DNA from: Escherichia coli
Lineage (GTDB): Bacteria; Pseudomonadota; Gammaproteobacteria; Enterobacterales; Enterobacteriaceae
Length of the DNA: 64,000 nt
Assembly (NCBI RefSeq): GCF_011045215.1
Contig: NZ_CP049201.1
Direction: 5' to 3' (one strand)
In this document: in pieces, positions 400 through 64,000 of the stretch
How positions within the stretch are numbered: the first letter of the stretch is position 1
How the letters are laid out: each line of letters opens with the position of its first letter
The notes under the pieces: generated by a model
Databases searched by the model: none
Told to the model about the DNA's origin: nothing
Seen by the model: only the letters and a program-made list of their open reading frames with translations
Translations under genes and position numbers: made by a program

Positions 400-1344
400 T
401 TATTTATACAGATCTGCGCTGACGGTCAGGTTATTACCACGTTCCTGCCACTGGCGGGTGATGTGGTAATACTTAGCACCTTTCTTCGCGGCACGTTTCG
501 CAACCTGATAGGAGACTTCGGTCATGTTGCCGTAGTTGCCAGAGAATTTGATGCTGTCGAACGGGACCATCATCGCTGCTGTCGCTTTGTTCAGTTCTTC
601 GACTTTAGTGCCGTCCGGGAGCGTGACGGTGTAACGCCCGCCTTTTGATGACTGGGTTTCAAAGAAGCGACCGACTTCAGAACTTGGTGATGCGGTAGTC
701 GCAACACCCGGGATCTCAACTTTCTTCGCGGCTTCGCCACCGGCAGCCAGAGCTGCACGTCCTGCTTCGGAATCTGCCGGGATCACATCCGGGCTCTGGA
801 CGATACGTTTCTTAGCATCTTTTTTATAGATGAATGCAGTAATACGCTGGTTGCCGCCCTGGTTGGCATCGATTTGACGAACAATGTAGAAAGAGTAGGC
901 ACCTTTCGCTTTTGCCGCTTTGGTGATGGCATCATTGACTTCTGGCTGGCTACGATAGAAGCCCTGGACGGTGACCGTGTCAAACGGTTCAATCAGAACA
1001 GCCTGATCTTTCGGCAGTTCGACAACACCGTTAATTACGCGATTACTTGTTTCTTCTGCTTTTTCAGCATCGGCTTTATAGAGGTCAGCGACCACACGCC
1101 AGTTACCGCTGTTACCAAAATCAGAAGTGTCGACAACATAAAAAGAGGCGGCACCTTCTTTATCTGCGCGACGAGAAACGGCTTTCACCGCTTCGCCAAT
1201 AGCATTAAAACGACCGGTAACCACTACACGGTCAAAAGGTTTAACCGCTGCCGCTTGCTCCGGTGTCAGTTCTGTTGCTGCGTTAACGGAGAATGCCGTA
1301 GCAGAAAGCAGTGCCGACGCCAGGAGGGTGTTCTTAAGCTTCAT
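400..1344 (-). CDS. ydgH: YdgH, periplasmic DUF1471-family protein
   Basis: 314-aa ORF with N-terminal signal peptide (MKLKNTLLASALLSATAFSVNA) and repeated YdgH-type domains; position next to pntA as in E. coli K-12. Confidence 0.85.
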   Translation of the reverse strand: MKLKNTLLASALLSATAFSVNAATELTPEQAAAVKPFDRVVVTGRFNAIGEAVKAVSRRADKEGAASFYVVDTSDFGNSGNWRVVADLYKADAEKAEETSNRVINGVVELPKDQAVLIEPFDTVTVQGFYRSQPEVNDAITKAAKAKGAYSFYIVRQIDANQGGNQRITAFIYKKDAKKRIVQSPDVIPADSEAGRAALAAGGEAAKKVEIPGVATTASPSSEVGRFFETQSSKGGRYTVTLPDGTKVEELNKATAAMMVPFDSIKFSGNYGNMTEVSYQVAKRAAKKGAKYYHITRQWQERGNNLTVSADLYK

Positions 1345-48990: not shown

Positions 48991-50498
48991 TGGCAATTCT
49001 TGATGATGTGATTGGCGTTTTTTCACCAGGATGGAAAGCGGCAAGGCTGCGTTCCCGTGCGGTGATCCAGGCTTATGAGGCCGTAAAAACGACGCGGACA
49101 CACAAAGCCCGACGGGAGAACCGAACTGCCGACCAGTTAAGCCAGTACGGGGCCGTGTCGTTACGTGAGCAGGCCCGTTACCTTGATAACAACCACGATC
49201 TGGTTATTGGTGTATTTGACAAGCTGGAAGAACGGGTGGTGGGGAAAAACGGGATTATTGTCGAGCCACATCCGGTATTACGCAATGGGGCCATTGCCCG
49301 TGACCTGGCTGCGGAGATTCGCACCCGATGGAGTGAATGGTCTGTCAGCCCGGAAGTCACCGGGCAGTTTACCCGTCCGATGCTGGAACGTCTGATGCTT
49401 CGTACCTGGCTGCGCGATGGTGAGGTGTTTGCCCAGATGGTTTCCGGGCGCATAAACAGCCTGACGCCTTCTGCCGGTGTTCATTTCTGGCTGGAGGCGC
49501 TCGAGCCGGACTTTATTCCCATGACCAGTGATGAGAGCAACAGGCTGAATCAGGGCGTGTTTGTTGATGACTGGGGGCGTCCCGAAAAATATCTGGTGTA
49601 TAAAAGCCGTCCCGTATCCGGACGGCAGATGGAAACCAAAGAAGTGGATGCAGAGCGAATGCTGCATCTTAAATTTGTTCGCCGTCTGCACCAGATGCGC
49701 GGGACGTCTTTATTGTCCGGTGTGCTGATCCGCCTCAGTGCCCTGAAAGAGTATGAAGATTCTGAGCTGACTGCAGCAAGGATCGCCGCCGCTCTGGGGA
49801 TGTACATCCGGAAAGGCGACGGGCAGAGCTATGAAGCGGATGGTAATGGCAGCAAGGATAAGGAACGCGAGCTTACCATTCAGCCAGGCATTATTTACGA
49901 TGATCTGAAACCCGGCGAAGAAATCGGAATGGTGAAGTCGGATCGCCCAAATCCTAACCTTGAAACTTTTCGTAATGGTCAGTTGCGTGCCGTGGCGGCG
50001 GGCAGTCGTCTGAGTTTTTCCAGTACAGCGCGCAACTATAACGGCACTTACAGCGCCCAGCGTCAGGAGCTGGTTGAATCCACTGATGGCTACCTGATCC
50101 TGCAGGACTGGTTTATTGGTGCCGTCACCCGTCCGATGTATCGTGCCTGGCTGAAACAGGCTGTGGCATCCGGTGTTATCAGGCTACCCCGCGATCTTGA
50201 CCTTTCTTCACTGTATACCGCGGTGTATTCCGGACCGGTGATGCCGTGGATTGACCCTGTTAAGGAGGCTGAGGCCTGGAAAATCCAGATTCGTGGTGGA
50301 GCGGCGACAGAATCAGACTGGGTACGTGCTGGTGGTCGTAATCCGGATGATGTCAAACGTCGGCGCAAGGCCGAAATTGATGAAAACCGCAAGCTGGATC
50401 TGGTATTTGATACCGATCCGGCCAGTGATAAAGGAGGCAGCAGTGCCGCAACGAAACGACAGGAGCCGCAGCACACCGACGACCAGTCCGAAGAATAA
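48990..50498 (+). CDS. portal protein (lambda gpB family)
   Basis: 502 aa from ATG overlapping W stop (TGATG); position after terminase and W. Confidence 0.85.
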   Translation: MAILDDVIGVFSPGWKAARLRSRAVIQAYEAVKTTRTHKARRENRTADQLSQYGAVSLREQARYLDNNHDLVIGVFDKLEERVVGKNGIIVEPHPVLRNGAIARDLAAEIRTRWSEWSVSPEVTGQFTRPMLERLMLRTWLRDGEVFAQMVSGRINSLTPSAGVHFWLEALEPDFIPMTSDESNRLNQGVFVDDWGRPEKYLVYKSRPVSGRQMETKEVDAERMLHLKFVRRLHQMRGTSLLSGVLIRLSALKEYEDSELTAARIAAALGMYIRKGDGQSYEADGNGSKDKERELTIQPGIIYDDLKPGEEIGMVKSDRPNPNLETFRNGQLRAVAAGSRLSFSSTARNYNGTYSAQRQELVESTDGYLILQDWFIGAVTRPMYRAWLKQAVASGVIRLPRDLDLSSLYTAVYSGPVMPWIDPVKEAEAWKIQIRGGAATESDWVRAGGRNPDDVKRRRKAEIDENRKLDLVFDTDPASDKGGSSAATKRQEPQHTDDQSEE

Positions 50499-50511
50499 TT
50501 CCTGGTTCAGG

Positions 50512-52470
50512 ATGCAGGCTGGTCACCAGAGTGACGCGGATATTTATATTTATGACGAGATTGGTTTCTGGGGTGTTACAGCGAAGCAGTTTATCAGTGA
50601 TCTGAATGCACTGGGCGATATCACCCATATTAATCTCCATATTAATTCACCGGGTGGCGATGTCTTTGAAGGCATCGCCATTTTTAATGCACTGAAAACA
50701 CATGGTGCGTCCATTACCGTTTATGTCGACGGTGTGGCGGCGTCAATGGCGTCGGTCATTGCGATGGTGGGAAACCCGGTCATTATGCCGGAAAACACCT
50801 TCATGATGATTCATAAACCATTTGGCTTTACGGGCGGTGATGCGGAGGACATGCGCACCTATGCCGACCTGCTCGATAAAGTTGAGGCGGTTCTGTTACC
50901 CGCTTATGCACAGAAAACCGGGAAAACCACCGATGAAATTGCTGCCATGCTGGCGGATGAGACCTGGATGTCCGGTGCCGAATGTCTGGCACATGGATTT
51001 GCTGATCAGGTAACGCCAGCCGTTAAGGCAATGGCATGTATTCAGTCAAAACGTACAGAGGAATTTAAAAAGATGCCGGAATCCATTCGAAACATGATTA
51101 CTCCGCCACGCAACAGTGCTCCACGCGTACAGGATAATGAACCTGAAGCCTCCCGGACGCCAGTGCAGGCAGCAGCACCCGTGGTGGATGAAAACAGCAT
51201 CCGTGCGCAGGTACTGGCAGAGCAAAAAGCGCGTGTAAACGGTATTAATGATCTGTTTGCCATGTTTGGCGGGCGTTATCAGACGCTGCAGGCTCAGTGT
51301 CTTGCCGATCCTGAATGTTCGCTGGAGCAGGCCCGCGAAAAGCTGTTGAACGAGATGGGGCGCGAGTCCACGCCATCCAATAAAAATACCCCGGCTCATA
51401 TTTATGCCGGTAACGGTAATTTTGTGGGGGACGGGATCCGCCAGGCGCTGATGGCGCGTGCCGGATTTGAAAAAACCGAACGTGATAATGTCTACAACGG
51501 GATGACCCTGCGTGAATATGCCCGTATGTCACTGACTGAACGGGGTATTGGGGTTTCCAGTTATAACCCGATGCAGATGGTCGGTGCGGCGTTCACACAC
51601 AGTACGTCTGACTTCGGTAATATTCTGCTGGATGTTGCGAACAAAGCCATTCTGCAGGGCTGGGAAGATGCCCCTGAAACCTATGAACAGTGGACGCGGA
51701 AAGGTCAGTTGTCTGATTTTAAAATTGCCCATCGTGTGGGTATGGGGGGCTTCAGTGCTCTGCGTCAGGTGCGTGAAGGGGCGGAATATAAATACGTCAC
51801 CACCGGAGATAAACAGGCCACTATTGCACTGGCGACCTATGGCGAGCTGTTCAGTATCACCCGTCAGGCCATTATCAATGATGATCTGAATATGCTGACC
51901 GATGTCCCGATGAAACTGGGCCGTGCGGCGAAATCCACTATTGCCGATCTGGTTTATGCCATTCTGACGTCTAACCCGAAAATCTCCACAGATAATGTAA
52001 GTCTGTTCGATAAAGCGAAACATGCAAACGTACTGGAGAGCGCTGCAATGGACGTGGCATCGCTGGATAAAGCCCGCCAGTTGATGCGCGTTCAGAAAGA
52101 GGGGGAGCGTCATCTGAATATTCGTCCTGCGTTCGTACTGGTACCGACGGCGATGGAGTCTGTTGCTAACCAGGTCATTCGCTCCTCAAGTGTCAAGGGG
52201 GCTGACATTAACGCCGGTATTATTAACCCGGTGAAAGATTTTGCGACCGTTATTGCAGAGCCTCGTCTTGATGATAACAGCCAGACCACCTTCTACCTGG
52301 CTGCGTCAAAAGGCTCCGATACGATTGAAGTGGCTTATCTCAACGGTGTGGATACGCCATATATTGATCAGATGGAGGGCTTCAGTGTGGATGGCGTGAC
52401 AACGAAAGTGCGTATTGACGCCGGTGTCGCGCCAGTTGATCACCGCGGTCTGGTGAAATGTACGGCGTAA
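50512..52470 (+). CDS. prohead protease (ClpP/S14-like) fused to major capsid protein
   Basis: 652 aa; N-terminal ClpP-like region (NSPGGDVFEGIAIFNAL...GVAASMASVIAM) and C-terminal capsid-like domain; upstream in-frame extension overlaps portal and is rejected. Confidence 0.8.
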   Translation: MQAGHQSDADIYIYDEIGFWGVTAKQFISDLNALGDITHINLHINSPGGDVFEGIAIFNALKTHGASITVYVDGVAASMASVIAMVGNPVIMPENTFMMIHKPFGFTGGDAEDMRTYADLLDKVEAVLLPAYAQKTGKTTDEIAAMLADETWMSGAECLAHGFADQVTPAVKAMACIQSKRTEEFKKMPESIRNMITPPRNSAPRVQDNEPEASRTPVQAAAPVVDENSIRAQVLAEQKARVNGINDLFAMFGGRYQTLQAQCLADPECSLEQAREKLLNEMGRESTPSNKNTPAHIYAGNGNFVGDGIRQALMARAGFEKTERDNVYNGMTLREYARMSLTERGIGVSSYNPMQMVGAAFTHSTSDFGNILLDVANKAILQGWEDAPETYEQWTRKGQLSDFKIAHRVGMGGFSALRQVREGAEYKYVTTGDKQATIALATYGELFSITRQAIINDDLNMLTDVPMKLGRAAKSTIADLVYAILTSNPKISTDNVSLFDKAKHANVLESAAMDVASLDKARQLMRVQKEGERHLNIRPAFVLVPTAMESVANQVIRSSSVKGADINAGIINPVKDFATVIAEPRLDDNSQTTFYLAASKGSDTIEVAYLNGVDTPYIDQMEGFSVDGVTTKVRIDAGVAPVDHRGLVKCTA

Positions 52471-54146: not shown

Positions 54147-54890
54147 ATGACCACACCAAATCCACTGGCAAAAACGAAAGGTGCGGGAACGACGTTCTGG
54201 ATGTACACCGGCAAGGGCGATGCGTTTGCGAACCCTTTATCGGACACTGACTGGCTGCGTCTTGCGATGGTGAAGGATCTGCAGCCTGGCGAAATGACCG
54301 CTGATGCAGAAGATGACACTTATCTCGATGATGAAGATGCAGACTGGAAAACGACAACCCAGGGGCAGAAATCCGTCGGTGATACTTCGGCGACGCTGGC
54401 CTGGCGTCCGGGTGACAGCGGGCAGAAAAAACTGGTTCAGTTGTTCGACGCCGGTGAAGTCTGCGCGTTTCGTATCAAATATCCCAACGGTACTGTTGAT
54501 GTTTTCCGTGGCTGGCTGAGTTCACTGGGTAAAACCATTGCCTCAAAAGACGTGATGACCCGCACAGTGAAAATCAGCGGTGTGGGGCGTCCGTATCTGG
54601 CAGAAGAAGGTACTGAAACCGTGGGCGTTACCGGGCTGACGGTGGCACCGGCATCTGCCAGTGTAAAAGTGGGAGCAACCACCACGCTGACCTTTACAGT
54701 AAAACCTGACGGAGCCAGTGACAAAGCGATCAGTGTGCATTCGACAGATCCACAGACTGCCACGGTGACCCTGAACGGGCTTGTGGCCACGGTGAAAGGC
54801 GTGAAGCAGGGCAGTGTCAGCATTGTGGGCATGACTTCTGACGGCGATTTTGTGGCAGTGGCTGCGGTGGCTGTCAGCGCAGCAGGTTAA
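54147..54890 (+). CDS. V: major tail protein V with C-terminal Ig-like domain
   Basis: 247 aa with strong RBS TAAGGAGG; C-terminal Thr/Val-rich Big_2-like segment. Confidence 0.85.
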   Translation: MTTPNPLAKTKGAGTTFWMYTGKGDAFANPLSDTDWLRLAMVKDLQPGEMTADAEDDTYLDDEDADWKTTTQGQKSVGDTSATLAWRPGDSGQKKLVQLFDAGEVCAFRIKYPNGTVDVFRGWLSSLGKTIASKDVMTRTVKISGVGRPYLAEEGTETVGVTGLTVAPASASVKVGATTTLTFTVKPDGASDKAISVHSTDPQTATVTLNGLVATVKGVKQGSVSIVGMTSDGDFVAVAAVAVSAAG

Positions 54891-54910
54891 CAGGACGATA
54901 CTCATCATTT

Positions 54911-54934
54911 GCCCCGGTTATCCGGGGCTTTTTT
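54911..54934 (+). terminator. rho-independent terminator after V
   Basis: stem gccccgg/ccggggc, loop ttat, then tttttt. Confidence 0.7.
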
Positions 54935-54947
54935 GCAGGTGGAGAAC

Positions 54948-55337
54948 ATGATGTTTCTGAAACAGGGCACGTTTAATTATGAAAAGCAGTCCGTGGTGCT
55001 CAGTGAGCTGTCCGGGCTGCAGAGAATTGAATATCTGGCGTTTGTTCAGCAGCGAACGGCAAAGTTTGATGCCGAAGAGGGAGAACTGCCGGAGGCTGAA
55101 CGACAGATTGCTTTTCTGCGGATGGGGATGGATATCAATGCCTGGCTGGTTTCCCGCTCACTGTGGAATGCGGATCAGTCTAAGGATGTTGAGACGCTTT
55201 GCGCATCCGTTATTACAACATGGTCGTATGATGCCCTGGGAGCGGGGGCGGAGATGGTTCTGTCGCTGAGCGGTATGGGAGCCATTGAGAATGCCGGGGA
55301 TTTGGAGCATGAGGTGCTGACGCCGGAAAAGTCCTGA
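54948..55337 (+). CDS. G: tail assembly chaperone G
   Basis: 129 aa preceding the tape measure gene. Confidence 0.8.
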   Translation: MMFLKQGTFNYEKQSVVLSELSGLQRIEYLAFVQQRTAKFDAEEGELPEAERQIAFLRMGMDINAWLVSRSLWNADQSKDVETLCASVITTWSYDALGAGAEMVLSLSGMGAIENAGDLEHEVLTPEKS

Positions 55338-55345
55338 CGCGGGAA

Positions 55346-55675
55346 ATGCAGTTTGTCATGCGGCTTGCCCGGGAGTTCCGGCGGGCAGACTGGCGGCGGA
55401 TGCTGTCGGAAATGTCGGCCACTGAGCTTGGTGAGTGGGGCGATTATTTCCGGATGCAGAGCTTCAGTGATGTGTGGATGGATGCGCAGTTTGCCTCGCT
55501 GAAGGCATTGATCGTGAGAATGGTGTCCGGTAGCAGTGATGCTGCGGTGGCTGATTTCAGCCTTTTACCGGAAGAGAACGGGATACCGGAGCGAACGGAC
55601 GAAGAACTGATGCATCTTGGGGAAGGTATTTCCGGAGGTGTGCGTTATGGACCAGATAGCCAACCTGGTCATTGA
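55346..55675 (+). CDS. T: T segment of tail assembly chaperone GT (expressed by -1 frameshift from G)
   Basis: ORF in -1 frame relative to G, open upstream into the G 3' end around an A-rich slippery site (GGAAAAG, 55325-55331). Confidence 0.65.
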   Translation: MQFVMRLAREFRRADWRRMLSEMSATELGEWGDYFRMQSFSDVWMDAQFASLKALIVRMVSGSSDAAVADFSLLPEENGIPERTDEELMHLGEGISGGVRYGPDSQPGH

Positions 55676-58600
55676 TTTGGGGATTGATGCGGCAGAGTTT
55701 AAAAATGAAATTCCCCGTATCAAAAACCTTCTGAATGGTGCAGCCAGCGATGCAGAACGGTCTTCTGCCCGTATGCAGCGTTTTATGGAGCGTCAGACTC
55801 AGGCCGCCCGGCAGACAATGCAGGCGGCTTCTTCGGCTGCAACAGCCGCATCCGTCCATGCGCAGACGGTGGAGAAGAGCGCACAGGCTCATGAACGCAT
55901 GGCCCGCGAGGTGGAGCAAACCCGCCAGCGTATGGAGGCACTGAGCCAGAAAATGCGCGAGGAACAGGCGCAGGCCATGGCTCTGGCGGAGGCTCAGGAT
56001 AAAGCGGCTGCTGCGTTTTATCGTCAGATTGACAGTGTGAAACAGGCCAGTGCGGGGCTGCAGGAATTACAGCGTATTCAGCAGCAGATCCGACAGGCCA
56101 GAAACAGTGGCGGGATTGGTCAGCAGGATTATCTGGCGCTGATTTCTGAGGTTACTGCGAAAACTCGAGTTCTTACACAGGCTGAGGAAGAGGCTACCCG
56201 ACAGAAAGTGGCGTTTATCCGTCAGCTTAAAGAGCAGGCAACCCGCCAGAATCTTTCATCTTCTGAGTTGCTTCGTGCTAAGGCAGCCCAGCTGGGGGTA
56301 AGCAGTGCTGCAGAAGTGTATATCCGCAAAATGGAGCAGGCAGGAAAAGCCACGCATTCGCTGGGGCTGAAAAGTGCAGCGGCCCGCCAGGAGATAGGCG
56401 TTCTGATAGGTGAACTGGCCCGCGGCAATTTAGGGGCGCTGAGAGGATCCGGGATAACGCTGGCTAACCGTGCCGGATGGATAGACACACTGATGTCACC
56501 GAAAGGCATGATGCTGGGCGGGGTTATTGGCGGTATTACCGCGGCCGTCTATGGTCTGGGTAAAGCCTGGTATGACGGTCAGAAGGAGGGGGAAGAATTT
56601 AACCGCCAGCTGTCGCTGACGGGGCACTATGCCGGAGTCACTGCCGGGCAACTGTGGACGCTCAGTCGTGCTATTTCCGGGAATGGTATCACGCAACATG
56701 CTGCAGCCGGTGCGCTGGCTCAGGTGGTGGGGAGTGGCGCATTTCGTGGAAACGATATCGGTATGGTGGCGAGAGCTGCCGCACAGATGGAGCGATCGGT
56801 TGGCCAGTCGGTCAGCGATACCATAAATCAGTTTAAGCGGCTGAAGGATGATCCTGTAAATGCCGCGAAGGCTCTGGACAATGAGCTGCATTTTCTTACT
56901 GCCACTCAGCTTGAGCAGATACGCGTCCTTGGGGAGCAGGGGCGGTCCAGTGATGCTGCACGGATAGCCATGTCTGCACTGGCAGAGGAAACCGGTCGGC
57001 GTACTGCGGATATTGATAATAACCTCAATGCGCTTGGCAGTACGCTGAAGTATCTGTCTGATTTGTGGAGTCGTTTCTGGGATGCGGCCATGAATATTGG
57101 TCGTGAAGACTCGCTGGATGAACAGATTGCCGCTTTACAGGAGAAAGTGTCGCGGGCGAAAAGACTCCCCTGGACGGCATCATCTTCTCAGGTTGAATAC
57201 GATCAGCAGCGTCTTAACGATCTTCAGGAGAAAAAACGCCAGAAGGATTTGCAGGATGCAAAAGAGCAGGCAGAGCGGAATTATCAGGAGCAACAGAAAC
57301 GACGTAATGCTGAAAATGCTGCACTGAACCGGATGAATGAAACGGAAGCAGCACGACATCAGCGTGAAATTGCGCGTATTAATGCCATGCAGTACGCCGA
57401 TCAGGCTGTCAGGGATGCGGCGATACAACGTGAAAATGAACGTTACGAGAAAGCCCTGGCATCCGGTAAGAAAAAAACACGCGAACCCCGTAATGATGAG
57501 GCCACCCGGTTATTGCTGCAGTACAGTCAGCAACAGGCACAGGTGGAAGGGCAGATTGCTGCTGCCAGACAGTCAGCAGGCATTGCCACGGAAAGGATGA
57601 CAGAAGCGCATAAACAGCTTCTGGCTCTGCAGCAGCGCATCAGCGACCTGGACGGGAAAAAACTGACGGCAGATGAAAAGAGTGTGCTGGCCCGTAAAGA
57701 TGAACTGATTCAGGCACTGACGCTGCTGGATGTAAAACAGCAGGAGCTTCAGAAACAGACGGCACTCAACGAGCTGAAGAAAAAAACAATTCAGCTGACC
57801 AGTCAACTGGCTGAAGAAGAGCGCGCTCAGCGTCAGCAACATGACCTGGATATCGCCACGGTGGGTATGGGTGATCAGCAGCGGCAGCGATATCAGGTAC
57901 AACTGAGTCTTCGCCAGAAATACCAGCAACAGCTGGAGCAGTTGAGGCGGGATAGTGAGCAGAAAGGAACATATAACACGGATGACTACAGAAAGGCCGA
58001 GCAGGCGCTGACGGAGAGCCTGAACCGACAACTGAATGAGAATCGCCGTTATTGGCAACAGCTTGAAATTGCTCAGGGTGACTGGAAAAACGGAGTCCTG
58101 CGTGCACTCCAGAATGTCACTGAGAAAGCGGATAACACAGCCGGGACAGTGGAACAGTTGTTCACGTCTGCGTTCAGTAGCATGAGTGACTGGCTGGCGA
58201 CATTCTGTACTACAGGCAAACTCAATTTCAAATCCTTCACCTCTTCTGTGCTGTCAGATATGTCCAGAATCATGGCTCAGATAGCTTTAATGAAAGCGGT
58301 AAAAGGTATTGCTTCCGCGCTGCCTTTTGATTTTGTAGCCAATGCTGATGGCGGTGTTTATCAGTCGGCTGATTTGAGTCGCTACAGTGGCACGGTGGTT
58401 AACCGTCCGACGTTTTTTGCTTTTGCAAAAGGCGCGGGTGTGATGGGGGAAGCTGGACCTGAAGCCATTCTGCCACTGCGTCGTGGTGCTGACGGTAAGC
58501 TGGGGGTTGTGGCGGATATTGGTGGTTCAGGTATGGCGATGTTTGCCCCGCAGTACAACATTGAGATCAATAACGATGGCACGAACGGGCAGATAGGTCC

Positions 58601-58703
58601 GGCTGCCCTGAAGGTGGTTTATGACCTTGGGAAAAAAGCGGCAGCGGACTTTATGCAACAGCAGGCCCGTGATGGTGGTCGGTTAAGTGGAGCATATCGG
58701 TAA
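55647..58703 (+). CDS. H: tail tape measure protein H
   Basis: about 1018 aa, highly alpha-helical Ala/Gln/Arg-rich with glycine-rich segments. Confidence 0.88.
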   Translation: MDQIANLVIDLGIDAAEFKNEIPRIKNLLNGAASDAERSSARMQRFMERQTQAARQTMQAASSAATAASVHAQTVEKSAQAHERMAREVEQTRQRMEALSQKMREEQAQAMALAEAQDKAAAAFYRQIDSVKQASAGLQELQRIQQQIRQARNSGGIGQQDYLALISEVTAKTRVLTQAEEEATRQKVAFIRQLKEQATRQNLSSSELLRAKAAQLGVSSAAEVYIRKMEQAGKATHSLGLKSAAARQEIGVLIGELARGNLGALRGSGITLANRAGWIDTLMSPKGMMLGGVIGGITAAVYGLGKAWYDGQKEGEEFNRQLSLTGHYAGVTAGQLWTLSRAISGNGITQHAAAGALAQVVGSGAFRGNDIGMVARAAAQMERSVGQSVSDTINQFKRLKDDPVNAAKALDNELHFLTATQLEQIRVLGEQGRSSDAARIAMSALAEETGRRTADIDNNLNALGSTLKYLSDLWSRFWDAAMNIGREDSLDEQIAALQEKVSRAKRLPWTASSSQVEYDQQRLNDLQEKKRQKDLQDAKEQAERNYQEQQKRRNAENAALNRMNETEAARHQREIARINAMQYADQAVRDAAIQRENERYEKALASGKKKTREPRNDEATRLLLQYSQQQAQVEGQIAAARQSAGIATERMTEAHKQLLALQQRISDLDGKKLTADEKSVLARKDELIQALTLLDVKQQELQKQTALNELKKKTIQLTSQLAEEERAQRQQHDLDIATVGMGDQQRQRYQVQLSLRQKYQQQLEQLRRDSEQKGTYNTDDYRKAEQALTESLNRQLNENRRYWQQLEIAQGDWKNGVLRALQNVTEKADNTAGTVEQLFTSAFSSMSDWLATFCTTGKLNFKSFTSSVLSDMSRIMAQIALMKAVKGIASALPFDFVANADGGVYQSADLSRYSGTVVNRPTFFAFAKGAGVMGEAGPEAILPLRRGADGKLGVVADIGGSGMAMFAPQYNIEINNDGTNGQIGPAALKVVYDLGKKAAADFMQQQARDGGRLSGAYR

Positions 58704-61094: not shown

Positions 61095-64000
61095 ATGGGT
61101 AAAGGCAGCAGTAAGGGGCATACCCCGCGCGAAGCGAAGGACAACCTGAAGTCCACGCAGCTGCTGAGTGTGATCGATGCCATCAGCGAAGGGCCGGTTG
61201 AAGGTCCGGTGGATGGATTAAAAAGCGTGCTGCTGAACAGTACGCCGGTGCTGGACACTGAGGGGAATACCAACATCTCCGGTGTCACGGTGGTGTTCCG
61301 TGCCGGTGAGCAGGAGCAGACACCGCCGGAGGGGTTTGAATCCTCCGGCTCCGAGACGGTGCTGGGTACGGAAGTGAAATATGACACGCCGATCACCCGC
61401 ACCATTACGTCTGCAAACATCGACCGTCTGCGCTTTACCTTCGGCGTGCAGGCACTGGTGGAAACCACCTCAAAGGGGGACCGGAATCCGTCGGAAGTCC
61501 GCCTGCTGGTTCAGATCCAGCGTAATGGTGGCTGGGTGACGGAAAAAGACATCACCATTAAGGGCAAAACCACCTCGCAGTATCTGGCCTCGGTGGTGGT
61601 GGGTAACCTGCCGCCGCGCCCGTTCAATATACGGATGCGCAGGATGACGCCGGACAGCACCACAGACCAGCTGCAGAACAAAACGCTCTGGTCGTCATAC
61701 ACCGAAATCATCGATGTGAAACAGTGCTACCCGAACACGGCACTGGTCGGCGTGCAGGTGGATTCGGAGCAGTTCGGCAGCCAGCAGGTGAGCCGTAATT
61801 ATCATCTGCGCGGGCGCATTCTGCAGGTGCCGTCGAACTATAACCCGCAGACGCGGCAATACAGCGGTATCTGGGACGGAACGTTTAAGCCAGCATACAG
61901 CAACAACATGGCCTGGTGTCTGTGGGATATGCTGACCCATCCGCGCTACGGCATGGGGAAACGTCTTGGTGCGGCGGATGTGGACAAATGGGCGCTGTAT
62001 GTCATCGGCCAGCATTGCGATCAGTCGGTGCCGGACGGTTTTGGCGGCACGGAGCCGCGCATCACCTGTAATGCGTACCTGACCACACAGCGCAAGGCGT
62101 GGGATGTGCTCAGTGATTTCTGCTCTGCGATGCGCTGTATGCCGGTATGGAACGGGCAGACGCTGACGTTCGTGCAGGACCGACCGTCGGATAAGGTGTG
62201 GACCTATAACCGCAGTAATGTGGTGATGCCGGATGATGGTGCGCCGTTCCGCTACAGCTTCAGCGCCCTGAAGGACCGCCATAATGCCGTTGAGGTGAAC
62301 TGGATTGACCCGAATAACGGCTGGGAGACGGCGACAGAGCTTGTGGAGGACACGCAGGCCATTGCCCGTTACGGTCGTAACGTCACGAAGATGGATGCTT
62401 TTGGCTGTACCAGCCGGGGGCAGGCACACCGCGCCGGGCTGTGGCTGATTAAAACAGAACTGCTGGAAACGCAGACCGTGGACTTCAGCGTGGGTGCCGA
62501 AGGGCTTCGCCATGTACCGGGCGATGTCATTGAAATCTGCGATGATGACTATGCCGGTATCCGCACCGGCGGGCGCGTGCTGGCGGTAAACAGCCAGACC
62601 CGGACGCTGACGCTCGACCGTGAAATCACGCTGCCATCTTCCGGCACCACGCTGATAAGCCTGGTTGACGGGCAGGGGAGTCCGGTCAGCGTGGAGGTTC
62701 AGTCCGTCACCGACGGCGTGAAGGTGAAAGTGAGCCGTGTTCCTGACGGCGTTGCTGAATACAGCGTATGGGGGCTGAAGCTGCCGACGTTGCGCCAGCG
62801 CCTGTTCCGCTGCGTGAGTATCCGTGAGAACGACGACGGCACGTATGCCATCACCGCCGTGCAGCATGTACCGGAAAAAGAGGCCATCGTGGATAACGGG
62901 GCGCACTTTGACGGCGACCAGAGCGGCACGGTAAATGGTGTCACGCCGCCAGCGGTGCAGCACCTGACCGCAGAAGTCACCGCAGACAGCGGGGAATACC
63001 AGGTGCTGGCGCGCTGGGACACGCCGAAGGTGGTGAAGGGCGTGAGCTTCCTGCTTCGCCTGACCGTGGCAGCGGATGACGGCCGTGAGCGGCTGGTCAG
63101 CACGGCCCGGACGACGGAAACCACTTACCGCTTCACACAACTGGCTCTGGGGAACTACAGGCTGACAGTCCGGGCAGTAAATGCGTGGGGGCAGCAGGGC
63201 GATCCGGCGTCGGTATCGTTCCGGATTGCCGCACCGGCAGCGCCGTCGCGGATTGAGCTGACGCCGGGCTATTTTCAGATAACCGCCACGCCGCATCTTG
63301 CGGTTTATGACCCGACGGTACAGTTTGAGTTCTGGTTCTCGGAAAAACGGATTGCGGATATCAGGCAGGTTGAAACCAGCGCGCGTTATCTTGGTACGGC
63401 ACTGTACTGGATAGCCGCCAGTATCAATATCAAACCGGGCCATGATTATTATTTTTACGTTCGCAGTGTGAACACCGTTGGCAAATCGGCATTCGTGGAG
63501 GCTGTCGGTCAGCCGAGTGATGATGCATCAGGCTATCTGGATTTTTTCAAAGGCGAGATAGGGAAAACCCATCTGGCTCAGGAGCTGTGGACGCAGATTG
63601 ATAACGGTCAGCTTGCGCCTGACCTGACTGAAATCAGGACGTCCATAACGGATGTCAGCAATGAAATAACACAGACCGTCAATAAGAAACTGGAAGACCA
63701 GAGTGCAGCGATCCAGCAGATACAGAAGGTTCAGGTTGATACAAATAATAACCTGAACAGCATGTGGGCAGTGAAGCTGCAGCAGATGCAGGACGGACGC
63801 CTTTATATTGCGGGTATCGGTGCCGGTATTGAGAACACCCCTGACGGCATGCAGAGTCAGGTGCTGCTGGCAGCAGACAGGATTGCGATGATTAATCCTG
63901 CGAATGGCAACACAAAGCCGATGTTTGTTGGTCAGGGCGATCAGATATTCATGAATGAAGTGTTCCTGAAACGCCTGACGGCCCCCACCATTACCAGCGG
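61095..64000 (+). CDS. J: host specificity/central tail fibre protein J (5' partial in window, continues beyond end)
   Basis: begins [41 protein letters not shown]..., near-identical to lambda J N-terminus; open to window end; absent from ORF track because it is truncated. Confidence 0.9.

What the first reader, a model, noticed from the sequence alone, without database searches (positions are those of the whole stretch)
55320..55350. Probable programmed -1 frameshift joining tail chaperone G to T
The T frame is open upstream into the last codons of G and lies in the -1 frame, with an A-rich slippery stretch (CCGGAAAAG) a few codons before the G stop. This is the conserved G/GT frameshift arrangement of long-tailed phages, although the heptamer differs from lambda's G GGA AAG.
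Basis: partly seen in the sequence, partly recalled or inferred. Interest (0 to 1): 0.3.

Follow-up and report, generated by a model that had tools for sequence, protein, structure and literature searches.

The report
Lambda-type G/GT tail chaperone frameshift
This is the ordinary, long-known ribosomal -1 frameshift that lets lambda-like phages make a little G-T fusion protein alongside the G tail-assembly chaperone, here in a common E. coli prophage with a slightly non-standard slippery sequence (G GAA AAG).

Summary
Gene G (54948..55337, lambda gpG equivalog) ends ...CCG GAA AAG TCC TGA. The T frame is the -1 frame, open from 55313 to 55675, and overlaps G by 22 nt. The only slip-prone site in the overlap is G GAA AAG (55325..55331).

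Comparative evidence supports the frameshift reading:
- The same in-register motif (G GAA AAG, or an A_AAR variant) sits 0-5 codons before the G stop in 43 distinct homologous junctions. These include cdtI, Gifsy-1/-2, Fels-1, phi80, mEp213 and the N15-like HK225. Lambda has G GGA AAG at the aligned position.
- The heptamer is nearly invariant although the sequence upstream is hypervariable.
- Codon-position variability switches from the G frame to the -1 frame exactly at the heptamer.
- The ATG at 55346, which RefSeq uses as the T start, has no usable Shine-Dalgarno sequence. It is Leu or Ile in most relatives, and a conserved Glu lies upstream of it.

The predicted product is a 242-aa GT fusion, ...LTPEK-VLTREMQF....

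This is a textbook system, and GenBank already describes the Gifsy and N15-type homologues as frameshift products. One point of interest is that the P-site codon is non-canonical (GAA re-pairs with GGA through a G·U pair). This heptamer served as a poorly slippery control in vitro, so efficiency is probably low. No experiment exists for this phage.

The parts
54147..54890 (+). Major tail tube gene V. This is the upstream context gene that defines the locus.
   Evidence: Pfam Phage_TTP_12, E 1e-66, plus a C-terminal Big_2 domain. Strong Shine-Dalgarno AAGGAGGTG.
54911..54934 (+). Intrinsic-terminator-like hairpin (GCCCCGG-TTAT-CCGGGGC followed by TTTTTT) between V and G.
   Evidence: Terminator scan. 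The same element is annotated 'terminator' in the phage Ayreon and mEp460 records.
54948..55337 (+). Gene G, the tail assembly chaperone: the 0-frame product, 129 aa. RefSeq starts it at the second ATG, 54951.
   Evidence: Pfam Phage_TAC_2, E 2e-39. NCBIfam TIGR01674 phage_lambda_G equivalog, E 2e-56, matched over its full length.
55310..55312 (+). Last stop codon (TGA) in the -1 frame upstream. It sets the 5' limit of where a productive shift can occur.
55311..55316 (+). Shine-Dalgarno-like GAGGTG, 8 nt 5' of the heptamer. A possible but unproven frameshift stimulator.
   Evidence: Duplex with the anti-SD sequence is -6.9 kcal/mol. However, 10.8% of random 24-nt windows from the same region do as well. 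The region encodes acidic residues.
55325..55331 (+). Slippery heptamer G GAA AAG: Glu codon in the P site, Lys codon in the A site.
   Evidence: It is the only A_AAG in the 22-nt overlap. Column entropy is 0-0.78 bits, against 1.4-1.8 bits in most of the upstream flank, across 43 distinct junctions.
55335..55337 (+). G stop codon (TGA), one codon after the slip site.
   Evidence: The arrangement AAG YCC TGA is conserved throughout the cdtI/Gifsy clade.
55331..55675 (+). T segment read in the -1 frame after the shift (VLTREMQFVMRLAREF...GPDSQPGH, then stop). The predicted GT fusion is join(54948..55331, 55331..55675), 242 aa.
   Evidence: TIGR01715 phage_lam_T, E 3e-40. Pfam Phage_tail_T, E 5e-15. 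PHROG 32165, a 290-position profile, matches G at positions 1-119 and T at positions 141-252.
55346..55348 (+). ATG that databases use as an independent start for T (109-aa ORF). Probably just an internal Met codon.
   Evidence: Weak GGGA directly abutting the codon. The residue is not conserved. PGAP and cdtI annotate T from here.
55647..58703 (+). Tape measure gene H. This is the downstream context gene. Its start overlaps the end of T by 29 nt.
   Evidence: Pfam TMP_2, Tape_meas_lam_C and TMP_4. Shine-Dalgarno GGAGGT, 7 nt upstream of the ATG.

Best explanation
Most ribosomes translating G finish at the TGA at 55335 and make the 129-aa chaperone G. A small fraction slip back one nucleotide on G GAA AAG (55325..55331). 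tRNA-Lys re-pairs from AAG to AAA, which is cognate. tRNA-Glu re-pairs from GAA to GGA, which is near-cognate with a G·U pair at the middle position. These ribosomes then read GTC CTG ACG CGG GAA ATG... in the -1 frame and make a 242-aa G-T fusion (...LTPEK-VLTREMQFVMRLAREF...). By analogy with lambda, many G copies plus a few GT copies coat the tape measure protein H, and the T domain recruits the tail tube protein V. Neither protein ends up in the virion. What is shown here: the gene order, the homology, the frame relationship, the conserved in-register motif, and the switch of the coding signature at the motif. What is inferred: that slippage actually occurs, its efficiency (probably below lambda's roughly 3-4%), and the chaperone mechanism.
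For: - G is a gpG equivalog and the -1 frame peptide is a gpT equivalog.
- One PHROG profile built from fused proteins matches G and T co-linearly.
- The locus has the gene order V-G-T-H-M-L-K-I-J.
- G GAA AAG, or another A_AAR variant, lies in register 0-5 codons before the G stop. In every intact locus examined, about 100-160 -1 frame codons are open beyond it. These loci are 11 annotated phages plus 78 IMG/VR loci, giving 43 distinct junctions at 35-98% protein identity.
- The heptamer is nearly invariant while the 39 nt upstream are hypervariable. The most variable codon position switches from position 3 of the G frame to position 3 of the -1 frame exactly at the heptamer, including the 5 codons before ATG 55346.
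- K128 and E133 of the fusion are invariant across the alignment and lie upstream of the annotated T start.
- GenBank records already describe the Gifsy-1, Gifsy-2, mEp213 and HK225 (N15-like) homologues, which have the same heptamer, as halves of a frameshift product.
- In E. coli, A_AAG is the most shift-prone tetramer (PMC4066793).
- The same GAA-to-GGA re-pairing through G·U has been noted in recurring tail-chaperone frameshift motifs (PMC10885494).
Against: - No protein-level evidence exists for this phage or, as far as I could find, for any G GAA AAG site.
- The heptamer breaks the X XXY YYZ rule. In a reconstituted E. coli system this exact sequence was the 'unfavourable, less slippery' control and gave mainly 0-frame product (PMC6924986).
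- The A_AAG tetramer without a stimulator is barely above background, about 0.15%.
- I found no significant or conserved downstream structure in this clade (z = -0.82; alifold -4.1).
- The upstream SD-like motif is not statistically compelling.
- An ATG lies 8 nt after the G stop, so some termination-reinitiation cannot be excluded.
- All public annotations of this exact sequence call T as a separate ORF.
Confidence: 0.85

Rival explanations
1. T is made as a separate 109-aa protein from ATG 55346, for example by termination-reinitiation after the G stop 8 nt upstream. On this view no frameshift is needed.
For: An ATG exists in the T frame 8 nt after the G stop. PGAP, cdtI and many other records annotate exactly this ORF. 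It appears on at least 1000 contigs as 'phage tail assembly protein T', while the fused sequence is absent from a collection of 15 billion proteins. The heptamer is intrinsically weak.
Against: There is no properly spaced Shine-Dalgarno sequence: only GGGA abutting the ATG, -4.3 kcal/mol, compared with -10 to -13 for V, H and L. The codon is CTG, ATT or CGC in Gifsy-1/-2, Fels-1, phi80, HK225, lambda and most IMG/VR relatives, so no start is conserved. Different annotators choose different T starts; Ayreon starts T 66 nt further downstream. Conserved -1 frame coding, including the invariant Glu133, precedes the ATG. TIGR01715 begins its match upstream of the Met. None of these features would be conserved if T started at the ATG.
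Confidence: 0.08
2. The G/T frame break is bridged at the RNA level, by transcriptional slippage on the A run. Alternatively, ribosomes shift elsewhere in the overlap.
For: The overlap allows any shift between 55313 and 55334. A short A4 run is present.
Against: From my own knowledge of the field, productive RNA polymerase slippage needs runs of about 7 or more A or T, and only four A's are present here. No other slip-prone motif exists in the 22-nt overlap (GAG GTG CTG ACG CCG). Across relatives the only conserved element of the overlap is the A_AAR site.
Confidence: 0.03
3. The T region is an unexpressed relic of a decaying prophage, so the arrangement has no current function.
For: The window is a chromosomal prophage region, 100% identical to E. 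coli 55989. One lambda-like relative (L080) does carry a disrupting indel in G.
Against: Free phages that share 98-99.6% nucleotide identity over this region (Ayreon, cdtI, mEp460, phi458 and others) have the identical arrangement. T shows a strong purifying-selection signature: entropy by codon position is 0.53, 0.41 and 1.20 bits. The whole tail module is intact in the window.
Confidence: 0.02

Closest known systems
Bacteriophage lambda G/GT programmed -1 ribosomal frameshift (Levin, Hendrix & Casjens 1993; Xu, Hendrix & Duda 2004, 2013, 2014, as summarised in PMC5009743)
   Same: The gene order V-G-T-H is the same. G and T are homologues, with about 35% identity over the fusion. T lies in the -1 frame and overlaps the 3' end of G. 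The slip site is at the aligned position, with the same A-site codon (A AAG, tRNA-Lys), and the Lys at the junction is invariant.
   Different: The P-site codon is GAA (Glu) and not GGA (Gly), so P-site re-pairing needs a G·U pair at the middle position. The G stop follows after 1 codon, against 5 in lambda. The overlap is 22 nt, against 61 nt. T is shorter (114 residues after the shift, against 144) and lacks lambda's C-terminal duplication of the GGVRYG segment. The hairpin about 40-76 nt downstream, conserved in the lambda/N15/phi80 clade, is absent. There is no experimental verification.
G/T pairs of Gifsy-1, Gifsy-2, Fels-1, cdtI, mEp460, Ayreon, phi80, mEp213 and HK225 (N15-like)
   Same: They have the identical heptamer G GAA AAG in the same register. 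cdtI, mEp460 and Ayreon are 98-99.6% identical in DNA to the window. In the cdtI/Gifsy clade the context CCG GAA AAG YCC TGA is also the same.
   Different: Essentially nothing differs; the window is another copy of this lineage. The GenBank notes for Gifsy-1/-2, mEp213 and HK225 already describe T as part of a frameshift product. The RefSeq E. coli annotations do not.
A_AAG tetramer and X_XXA_AAG heptamer frameshift sites of E. coli (dnaX A AAA AAG; IS911/IS3)
   Same: They rely on the weak AAG pairing of E. coli tRNA-Lys and its cognate re-pairing to AAA (PMC4066793; PMC6924986).
   Different: dnaX and the IS elements use strong stimulators: an upstream SD sequence plus a downstream stem-loop or pseudoknot. 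No convincing stimulator was found here. The required output here is a low-percentage fusion, not a roughly 50% split.

Membership tests
Lambda-type tail assembly chaperone G/GT -1 frameshift | Two ORFs located between the major tail (tube) gene and the tape measure gene | tested here: met
   V (Phage_TTP_12) lies at 54147..54890. H (TMP_2 and Tape_meas_lam_C) lies at 55647..58703. G and T lie between them.
Lambda-type tail assembly chaperone G/GT -1 frameshift | The upstream ORF is homologous to gpG | tested here: met
   TIGR01674 equivalog, 189.6 bits against a cutoff of 74.45. Pfam PF06894, E 2e-39.
Lambda-type tail assembly chaperone G/GT -1 frameshift | The downstream ORF is homologous to gpT, lies in the -1 frame and overlaps the 3' end of G | tested here: met
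   TIGR01715 equivalog, 136.8 bits against a cutoff of 77.35. The -1 frame is open 55313..55675, giving a 22-nt overlap.
Lambda-type tail assembly chaperone G/GT -1 frameshift | A canonical X XXY YYZ slippery heptamer lies within the overlap in the G frame | tested here: inconclusive
   G GAA AAG has a canonical A-site half (A AAG), but the P-site half is not XXY. GAA to GGA needs a G·U pair at position 2 (PMC6924986). Nonetheless it is conserved in register in most relatives.
Lambda-type tail assembly chaperone G/GT -1 frameshift | The slip site and the frame arrangement are conserved among divergent homologues | tested here: met
   Across 43 distinct junctions, heptamer entropy is 0-0.78 bits against 1.4-1.8 bits in most of the upstream flank. 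The coding phase switches at the heptamer.
Lambda-type tail assembly chaperone G/GT -1 frameshift | T has no functional independent translation start | tested here: inconclusive
   ATG 55346 exists, but it lacks a spaced Shine-Dalgarno sequence and is not conserved. Reinitiation cannot be excluded from sequence alone.
Lambda-type tail assembly chaperone G/GT -1 frameshift | A GT fusion protein is produced at a low, fixed ratio to G and is required for tail assembly | not testable with these tools
   This needs an immunoblot, mass spectrometry, a reporter assay and genetics. No such data were found in the searched literature.

The most novel reading that the evidence does not exclude
The G GAA AAG / A_AAR sites dominate the cdtI, Gifsy, phi80 and N15-like relatives sampled here. 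They might work by a mechanistically different route from lambda's two-tRNA slip. One possibility is slippage of tRNA-Lys alone, helped by the adjacent 0-frame stop and/or the upstream SD-like GAGG. Both site tRNAs (Glu and Lys) carry the mnm5s2U34 modification, which might set a different G:GT ratio and a stronger dependence on host tRNA thiolation than in lambda.
Probability: 0.25. Interest if true: 0.35.

Novelty: already known. Interest (0 to 1): 0.13.

Why it matters
The main value is better annotation. This G-T pair occurs in 1847 of 5426 complete E. coli genomes. It is uniformly annotated as two separate proteins, and the real fusion product is missing from protein databases. A joined CDS with ribosomal slippage at 55331 would describe it better.

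There is also a modest mechanistic point. A heptamer used in vitro as a 'non-slippery' control (PMC6924986) is the naturally conserved shift site of a large phage clade. That makes it a convenient natural test case for how much P-site mispairing a low-efficiency programmed frameshift tolerates.

Tried and rejected
- **Downstream stimulatory RNA structure.** The 89 nt after the site fold no better than shuffled sequences (z = -0.82). RNAalifold finds no consensus structure in the cdtI/Gifsy clade (-4.1 kcal/mol) or across all 30 representatives (-1.6). Rejected for this clade.
- **Upstream SD-like stimulator.** GAGGTG lies 8 nt 5' of the heptamer, and most clade members have a GAGG or AGGA motif there. 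However, 10.8% of random windows score as well, and the region encodes Glu/Asp-rich peptide. Kept only as a lead.
- **Independent T start.** Scored by Shine-Dalgarno strength and by conservation. Judged unlikely.
- **Prior annotation of the joined product.** An exact look-up found neither the 242-aa nor the 241-aa fusion.
- **Literature on G GAA AAG in phage tails.** Four full-text searches found no experimental test. Xu, Hendrix & Duda 2004 is not held. The PRFect supplement did not list the motif.
- **L080, which seemed to lack a T frame.** It is a lambda-like locus with an indel in G and not a different architecture.
- **The 582-aa minus-strand ORF at 61695..63443.** It is antisense to gene J and has no credible domain, so I treat it as spurious.

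Full report
**Observation**

I read 54700..55900 and translated all frames.
- Gene G runs 54948..55337 on the + strand (129 aa). It starts at one of the twin ATGs at 54948 and 54951, behind GGTGGAG.
- G ends ...CTG ACG CCG GAA AAG TCC TGA.
- The frame that holds the T homologue is the -1 frame relative to G. It is open from 55313, just after a TGA at 55310..55312, to the stop at 55673..55675. It therefore overlaps G by 22 nt.
- The string CCGGAAAAG is at 55323..55331. In G's frame the heptamer is G GAA AAG (55325..55331), with a single sense codon before the stop.
- Chance is a poor explanation. In the window's long + strand open frames, in-frame A_AAG occurs at 0.0027 per codon and G_GAA_AAG at 0.00016 per codon. 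The expected counts in a 7-codon overlap are about 0.02 and 0.001.

**What the genes are**

- G matches Pfam Phage_TAC_2 (E 2e-39) and the NCBIfam equivalog TIGR01674 phage_lambda_G (E 2e-56, full length).
- The -1 frame peptide matches Pfam Phage_tail_T (E 5e-15) and the equivalog TIGR01715 phage_lam_T (E 3e-40).
- One PHROG profile of 290 positions (phrog_32165) matches G at positions 1-119 and T at positions 141-252. This means fused G-T proteins exist as a family.
- The neighbours are lambda-like: Z, U, V (tube protein with a Big_2 domain), then G and T, then H (tape measure), M, L, K, I and J.
- The DNA is 100% identical to a prophage of E. coli 55989. It is 98-99.6% identical to phages Ayreon, phi458, cdtI, mEp460 and others.
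- This G-T segment is present in 1847 of 5426 complete E. coli genomes.

**Comparative test**

I extracted the G/T junction from 11 annotated phages and from 78 IMG/VR loci found with a GT protein alignment. This gave 43 distinct junction sequences at 35-98% protein identity.

The frame arrangement holds throughout. In every intact locus the T homologue lies in the -1 frame, with about 100-160 codons open beyond the overlap.

An in-register A_AAR lysine codon lies 0-5 codons before the G stop in all of them. The variants found were:
- CCG GAA AAG YCC TGA in the cdtI, Gifsy-1/-2 and Fels-1 clade, which includes the window.
- GCG GAA AAG ... in phi80, mEp213, Eeyore and the N15-like HK225.
- GCG GAA AAG CGC TAA, GCA GAA AAG TAA, CTG GAA AAA TAG and CTG GCA AAA TAG in more distant IMG/VR loci.
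- GCG GGA AAG in lambda and PhiR12_5.

Conservation is concentrated on the site. The heptamer columns have entropies of 0.37, 0, 0.78, 0, 0, 0 and 0.58 bits. Most of the preceding columns have 1.4-1.8 bits.

The coding signature switches at the site.
- Upstream, the most variable codon position is position 3 of the G frame (1.77 bits against 1.36 and 1.43).
- In the five codons immediately after the heptamer it is position 3 of the -1 frame (1.29 bits against 0.83 and 0.66).
- The same pattern holds in the rest of T (1.20 bits against 0.53 and 0.41).

In the protein alignment, the junction Lys (K128) and Glu133 are invariant. Both lie upstream of the ATG that databases use as the T start.

**Independent start?**

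ATG 55346 lies 8 nt after the G stop. RefSeq/PGAP and the cdtI record use it as the T start. The 109-aa ORF is recorded on at least 1000 contigs, whereas the fused sequence is absent from a collection of 15 billion proteins.

Several points argue against it as a real start.
- Its only Shine-Dalgarno-like element is GGGA directly abutting the ATG (-4.3 kcal/mol). V, H and L have -10 to -13 kcal/mol at normal spacing.
- The codon is CTG, ATT or CGC in most relatives.
- Other annotators chose other starts. Ayreon starts T 66 nt further downstream.

I therefore read the Met as an ordinary hydrophobic-position variant. Some termination-reinitiation in this particular lineage cannot be excluded from sequence alone.

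**Mechanism**

The A-site half of the site (A AAG) is the classic E. coli shift-prone element. A_AAG is the best of the 16 tetramers (PMC4066793), and tRNA-Lys re-pairs cognately with AAA.

The P-site half is non-canonical. tRNA-Glu must move from GAA to GGA, which places a G·U pair at the middle position. Peng et al. used exactly AUG GAA AAG as their 'unfavourable', 'less slippery' mRNA and saw mainly 0-frame product with wild-type EF-G (PMC6924986). The PRFect authors noted the same GAA-to-GGA re-pairing in recurrent tail-chaperone motifs, and they list a 'twofour' motif class (a 2-base run followed by a 4-base run), which I take to include GGAAAA (PMC10885494).

Among relatives the P-site codon varies (GAA, GGA, GCA) while A_AAR does not. 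This suggests the lysine slip is the essential event and that P-site pairing only tunes efficiency.

The tetramer alone is near background without a stimulator, about 0.15%. I therefore infer an efficiency at or below lambda's few percent. That fits a system in which a G:GT ratio of about 30:1 is needed (PMC5009743).

I looked for stimulators and found nothing convincing.
- The downstream 89 nt fold no better than shuffled sequences (z = -0.82).
- There is no consensus structure in this clade.
- The lambda/N15/phi80 clade does share a hairpin about 40-76 nt downstream (alifold -29.5).
- An SD-like GAGGTG lies 8 nt upstream, and similar motifs recur in the clade. However, 10.8% of random windows score as well.

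The predicted product is join(54948..55331, 55331..55675): 242 aa, with the junction ...LTPEK-VLTREMQF....

**Comparison with what is known, and verdict**

This is the lambda G/GT programmed -1 frameshift, in a lineage where GenBank curators had already inferred it. The Gifsy-1 T record reads 'part of ... gpG by translational frameshifting'. The Gifsy-2 record reads 'G+G' frameshift hybrid'. The mEp213 and HK225 T records cite N15's 'downstream half of translational frameshift product'. The Ayreon T record reads 'GpGT-like'.

All sequence-level membership criteria are met except strict X XXY YYZ canonicity. Production of the fusion cannot be tested here.

The feature is already known, and interest is low. 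The residual value lies in two things: correcting a widespread two-ORF annotation, and the modest curiosity that a 'non-slippery' laboratory control is the conserved natural site of a large phage clade.

Noticed in passing
window 54911..54934 (+): There is a strong intrinsic-terminator-like hairpin (7 G-C pairs, tetraloop, T6 tail) in the 57-nt gap between the major tail gene V and G. The same element is annotated 'terminator' in phages Ayreon and mEp460. It might lower G/T/H expression relative to V unless late transcription is antiterminated.
   Followed up: partly
window 50347..52470 (+): A single long ORF carries a ClpP-type protease domain (residues 63-223) followed by a phage capsid domain (Phage_capsid_4, residues 409-704). 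This would be a prohead protease and major capsid protein fusion. The TTG start at 50251 listed by the ORF finder is probably too far upstream.
   Followed up: partly
L003 (lambda), L006, L007, L008, L011: about 40-76 nt downstream of the heptamer: The lambda/N15/phi80 clade shares a conserved G+C-rich hairpin (GGCGCGYG...CUGGCGYGCC) inside the T coding region (RNAalifold -29.5 kcal/mol on 7 sequences). The window's cdtI/Gifsy clade lacks it. I did not test whether it affects frameshifting or only reflects the conserved LAREFGRPDWRAM codons.
   Followed up: partly
window 55346..55675 and RefSeq NC_011748 (L094 1947..2276): PGAP and most submitters annotate T as an independent 109-aa protein, found on at least 1000 contigs. 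The fused GT product of this sequence is absent from a collection of 15 billion proteins. This looks like a systematic annotation gap for this prophage family.
   Followed up: yes
IMG/VR loci L074-L076, L079, L081, L082, L084, L085, L087 (G/T junction): In distant relatives the 0-frame stop directly follows the slip codon (GCA AAA TAG, GAA AAA TAG, GAA AAG TAA), a 'shifty stop' arrangement. The P-site codon GCA cannot re-pair in the -1 frame, which points to slippage of tRNA-Lys alone.
   Followed up: partly
L080 about 940..1010: This lambda-like IMG/VR locus has an indel that truncates G (…PEQALV, then stop). The indel puts the T sequence in G's frame behind a stop codon. It is probably a decayed prophage or a sequencing error.
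   Followed up: partly
window 55634..55675 (+): The last 29 nt of T overlap the start of the tape measure gene H (ATG 55647). The Shine-Dalgarno sequence of H (GGAGGT, 55634..55639) lies inside the conserved GGVRYGPD coding segment of T.
   Followed up: no
window 61695..63443 (-): A 582-aa open frame lies antisense to the tail tip gene J, which starts near 61095 and runs off the window end. It has no credible domain hit and is most likely a spurious antisense ORF.
   Followed up: partly
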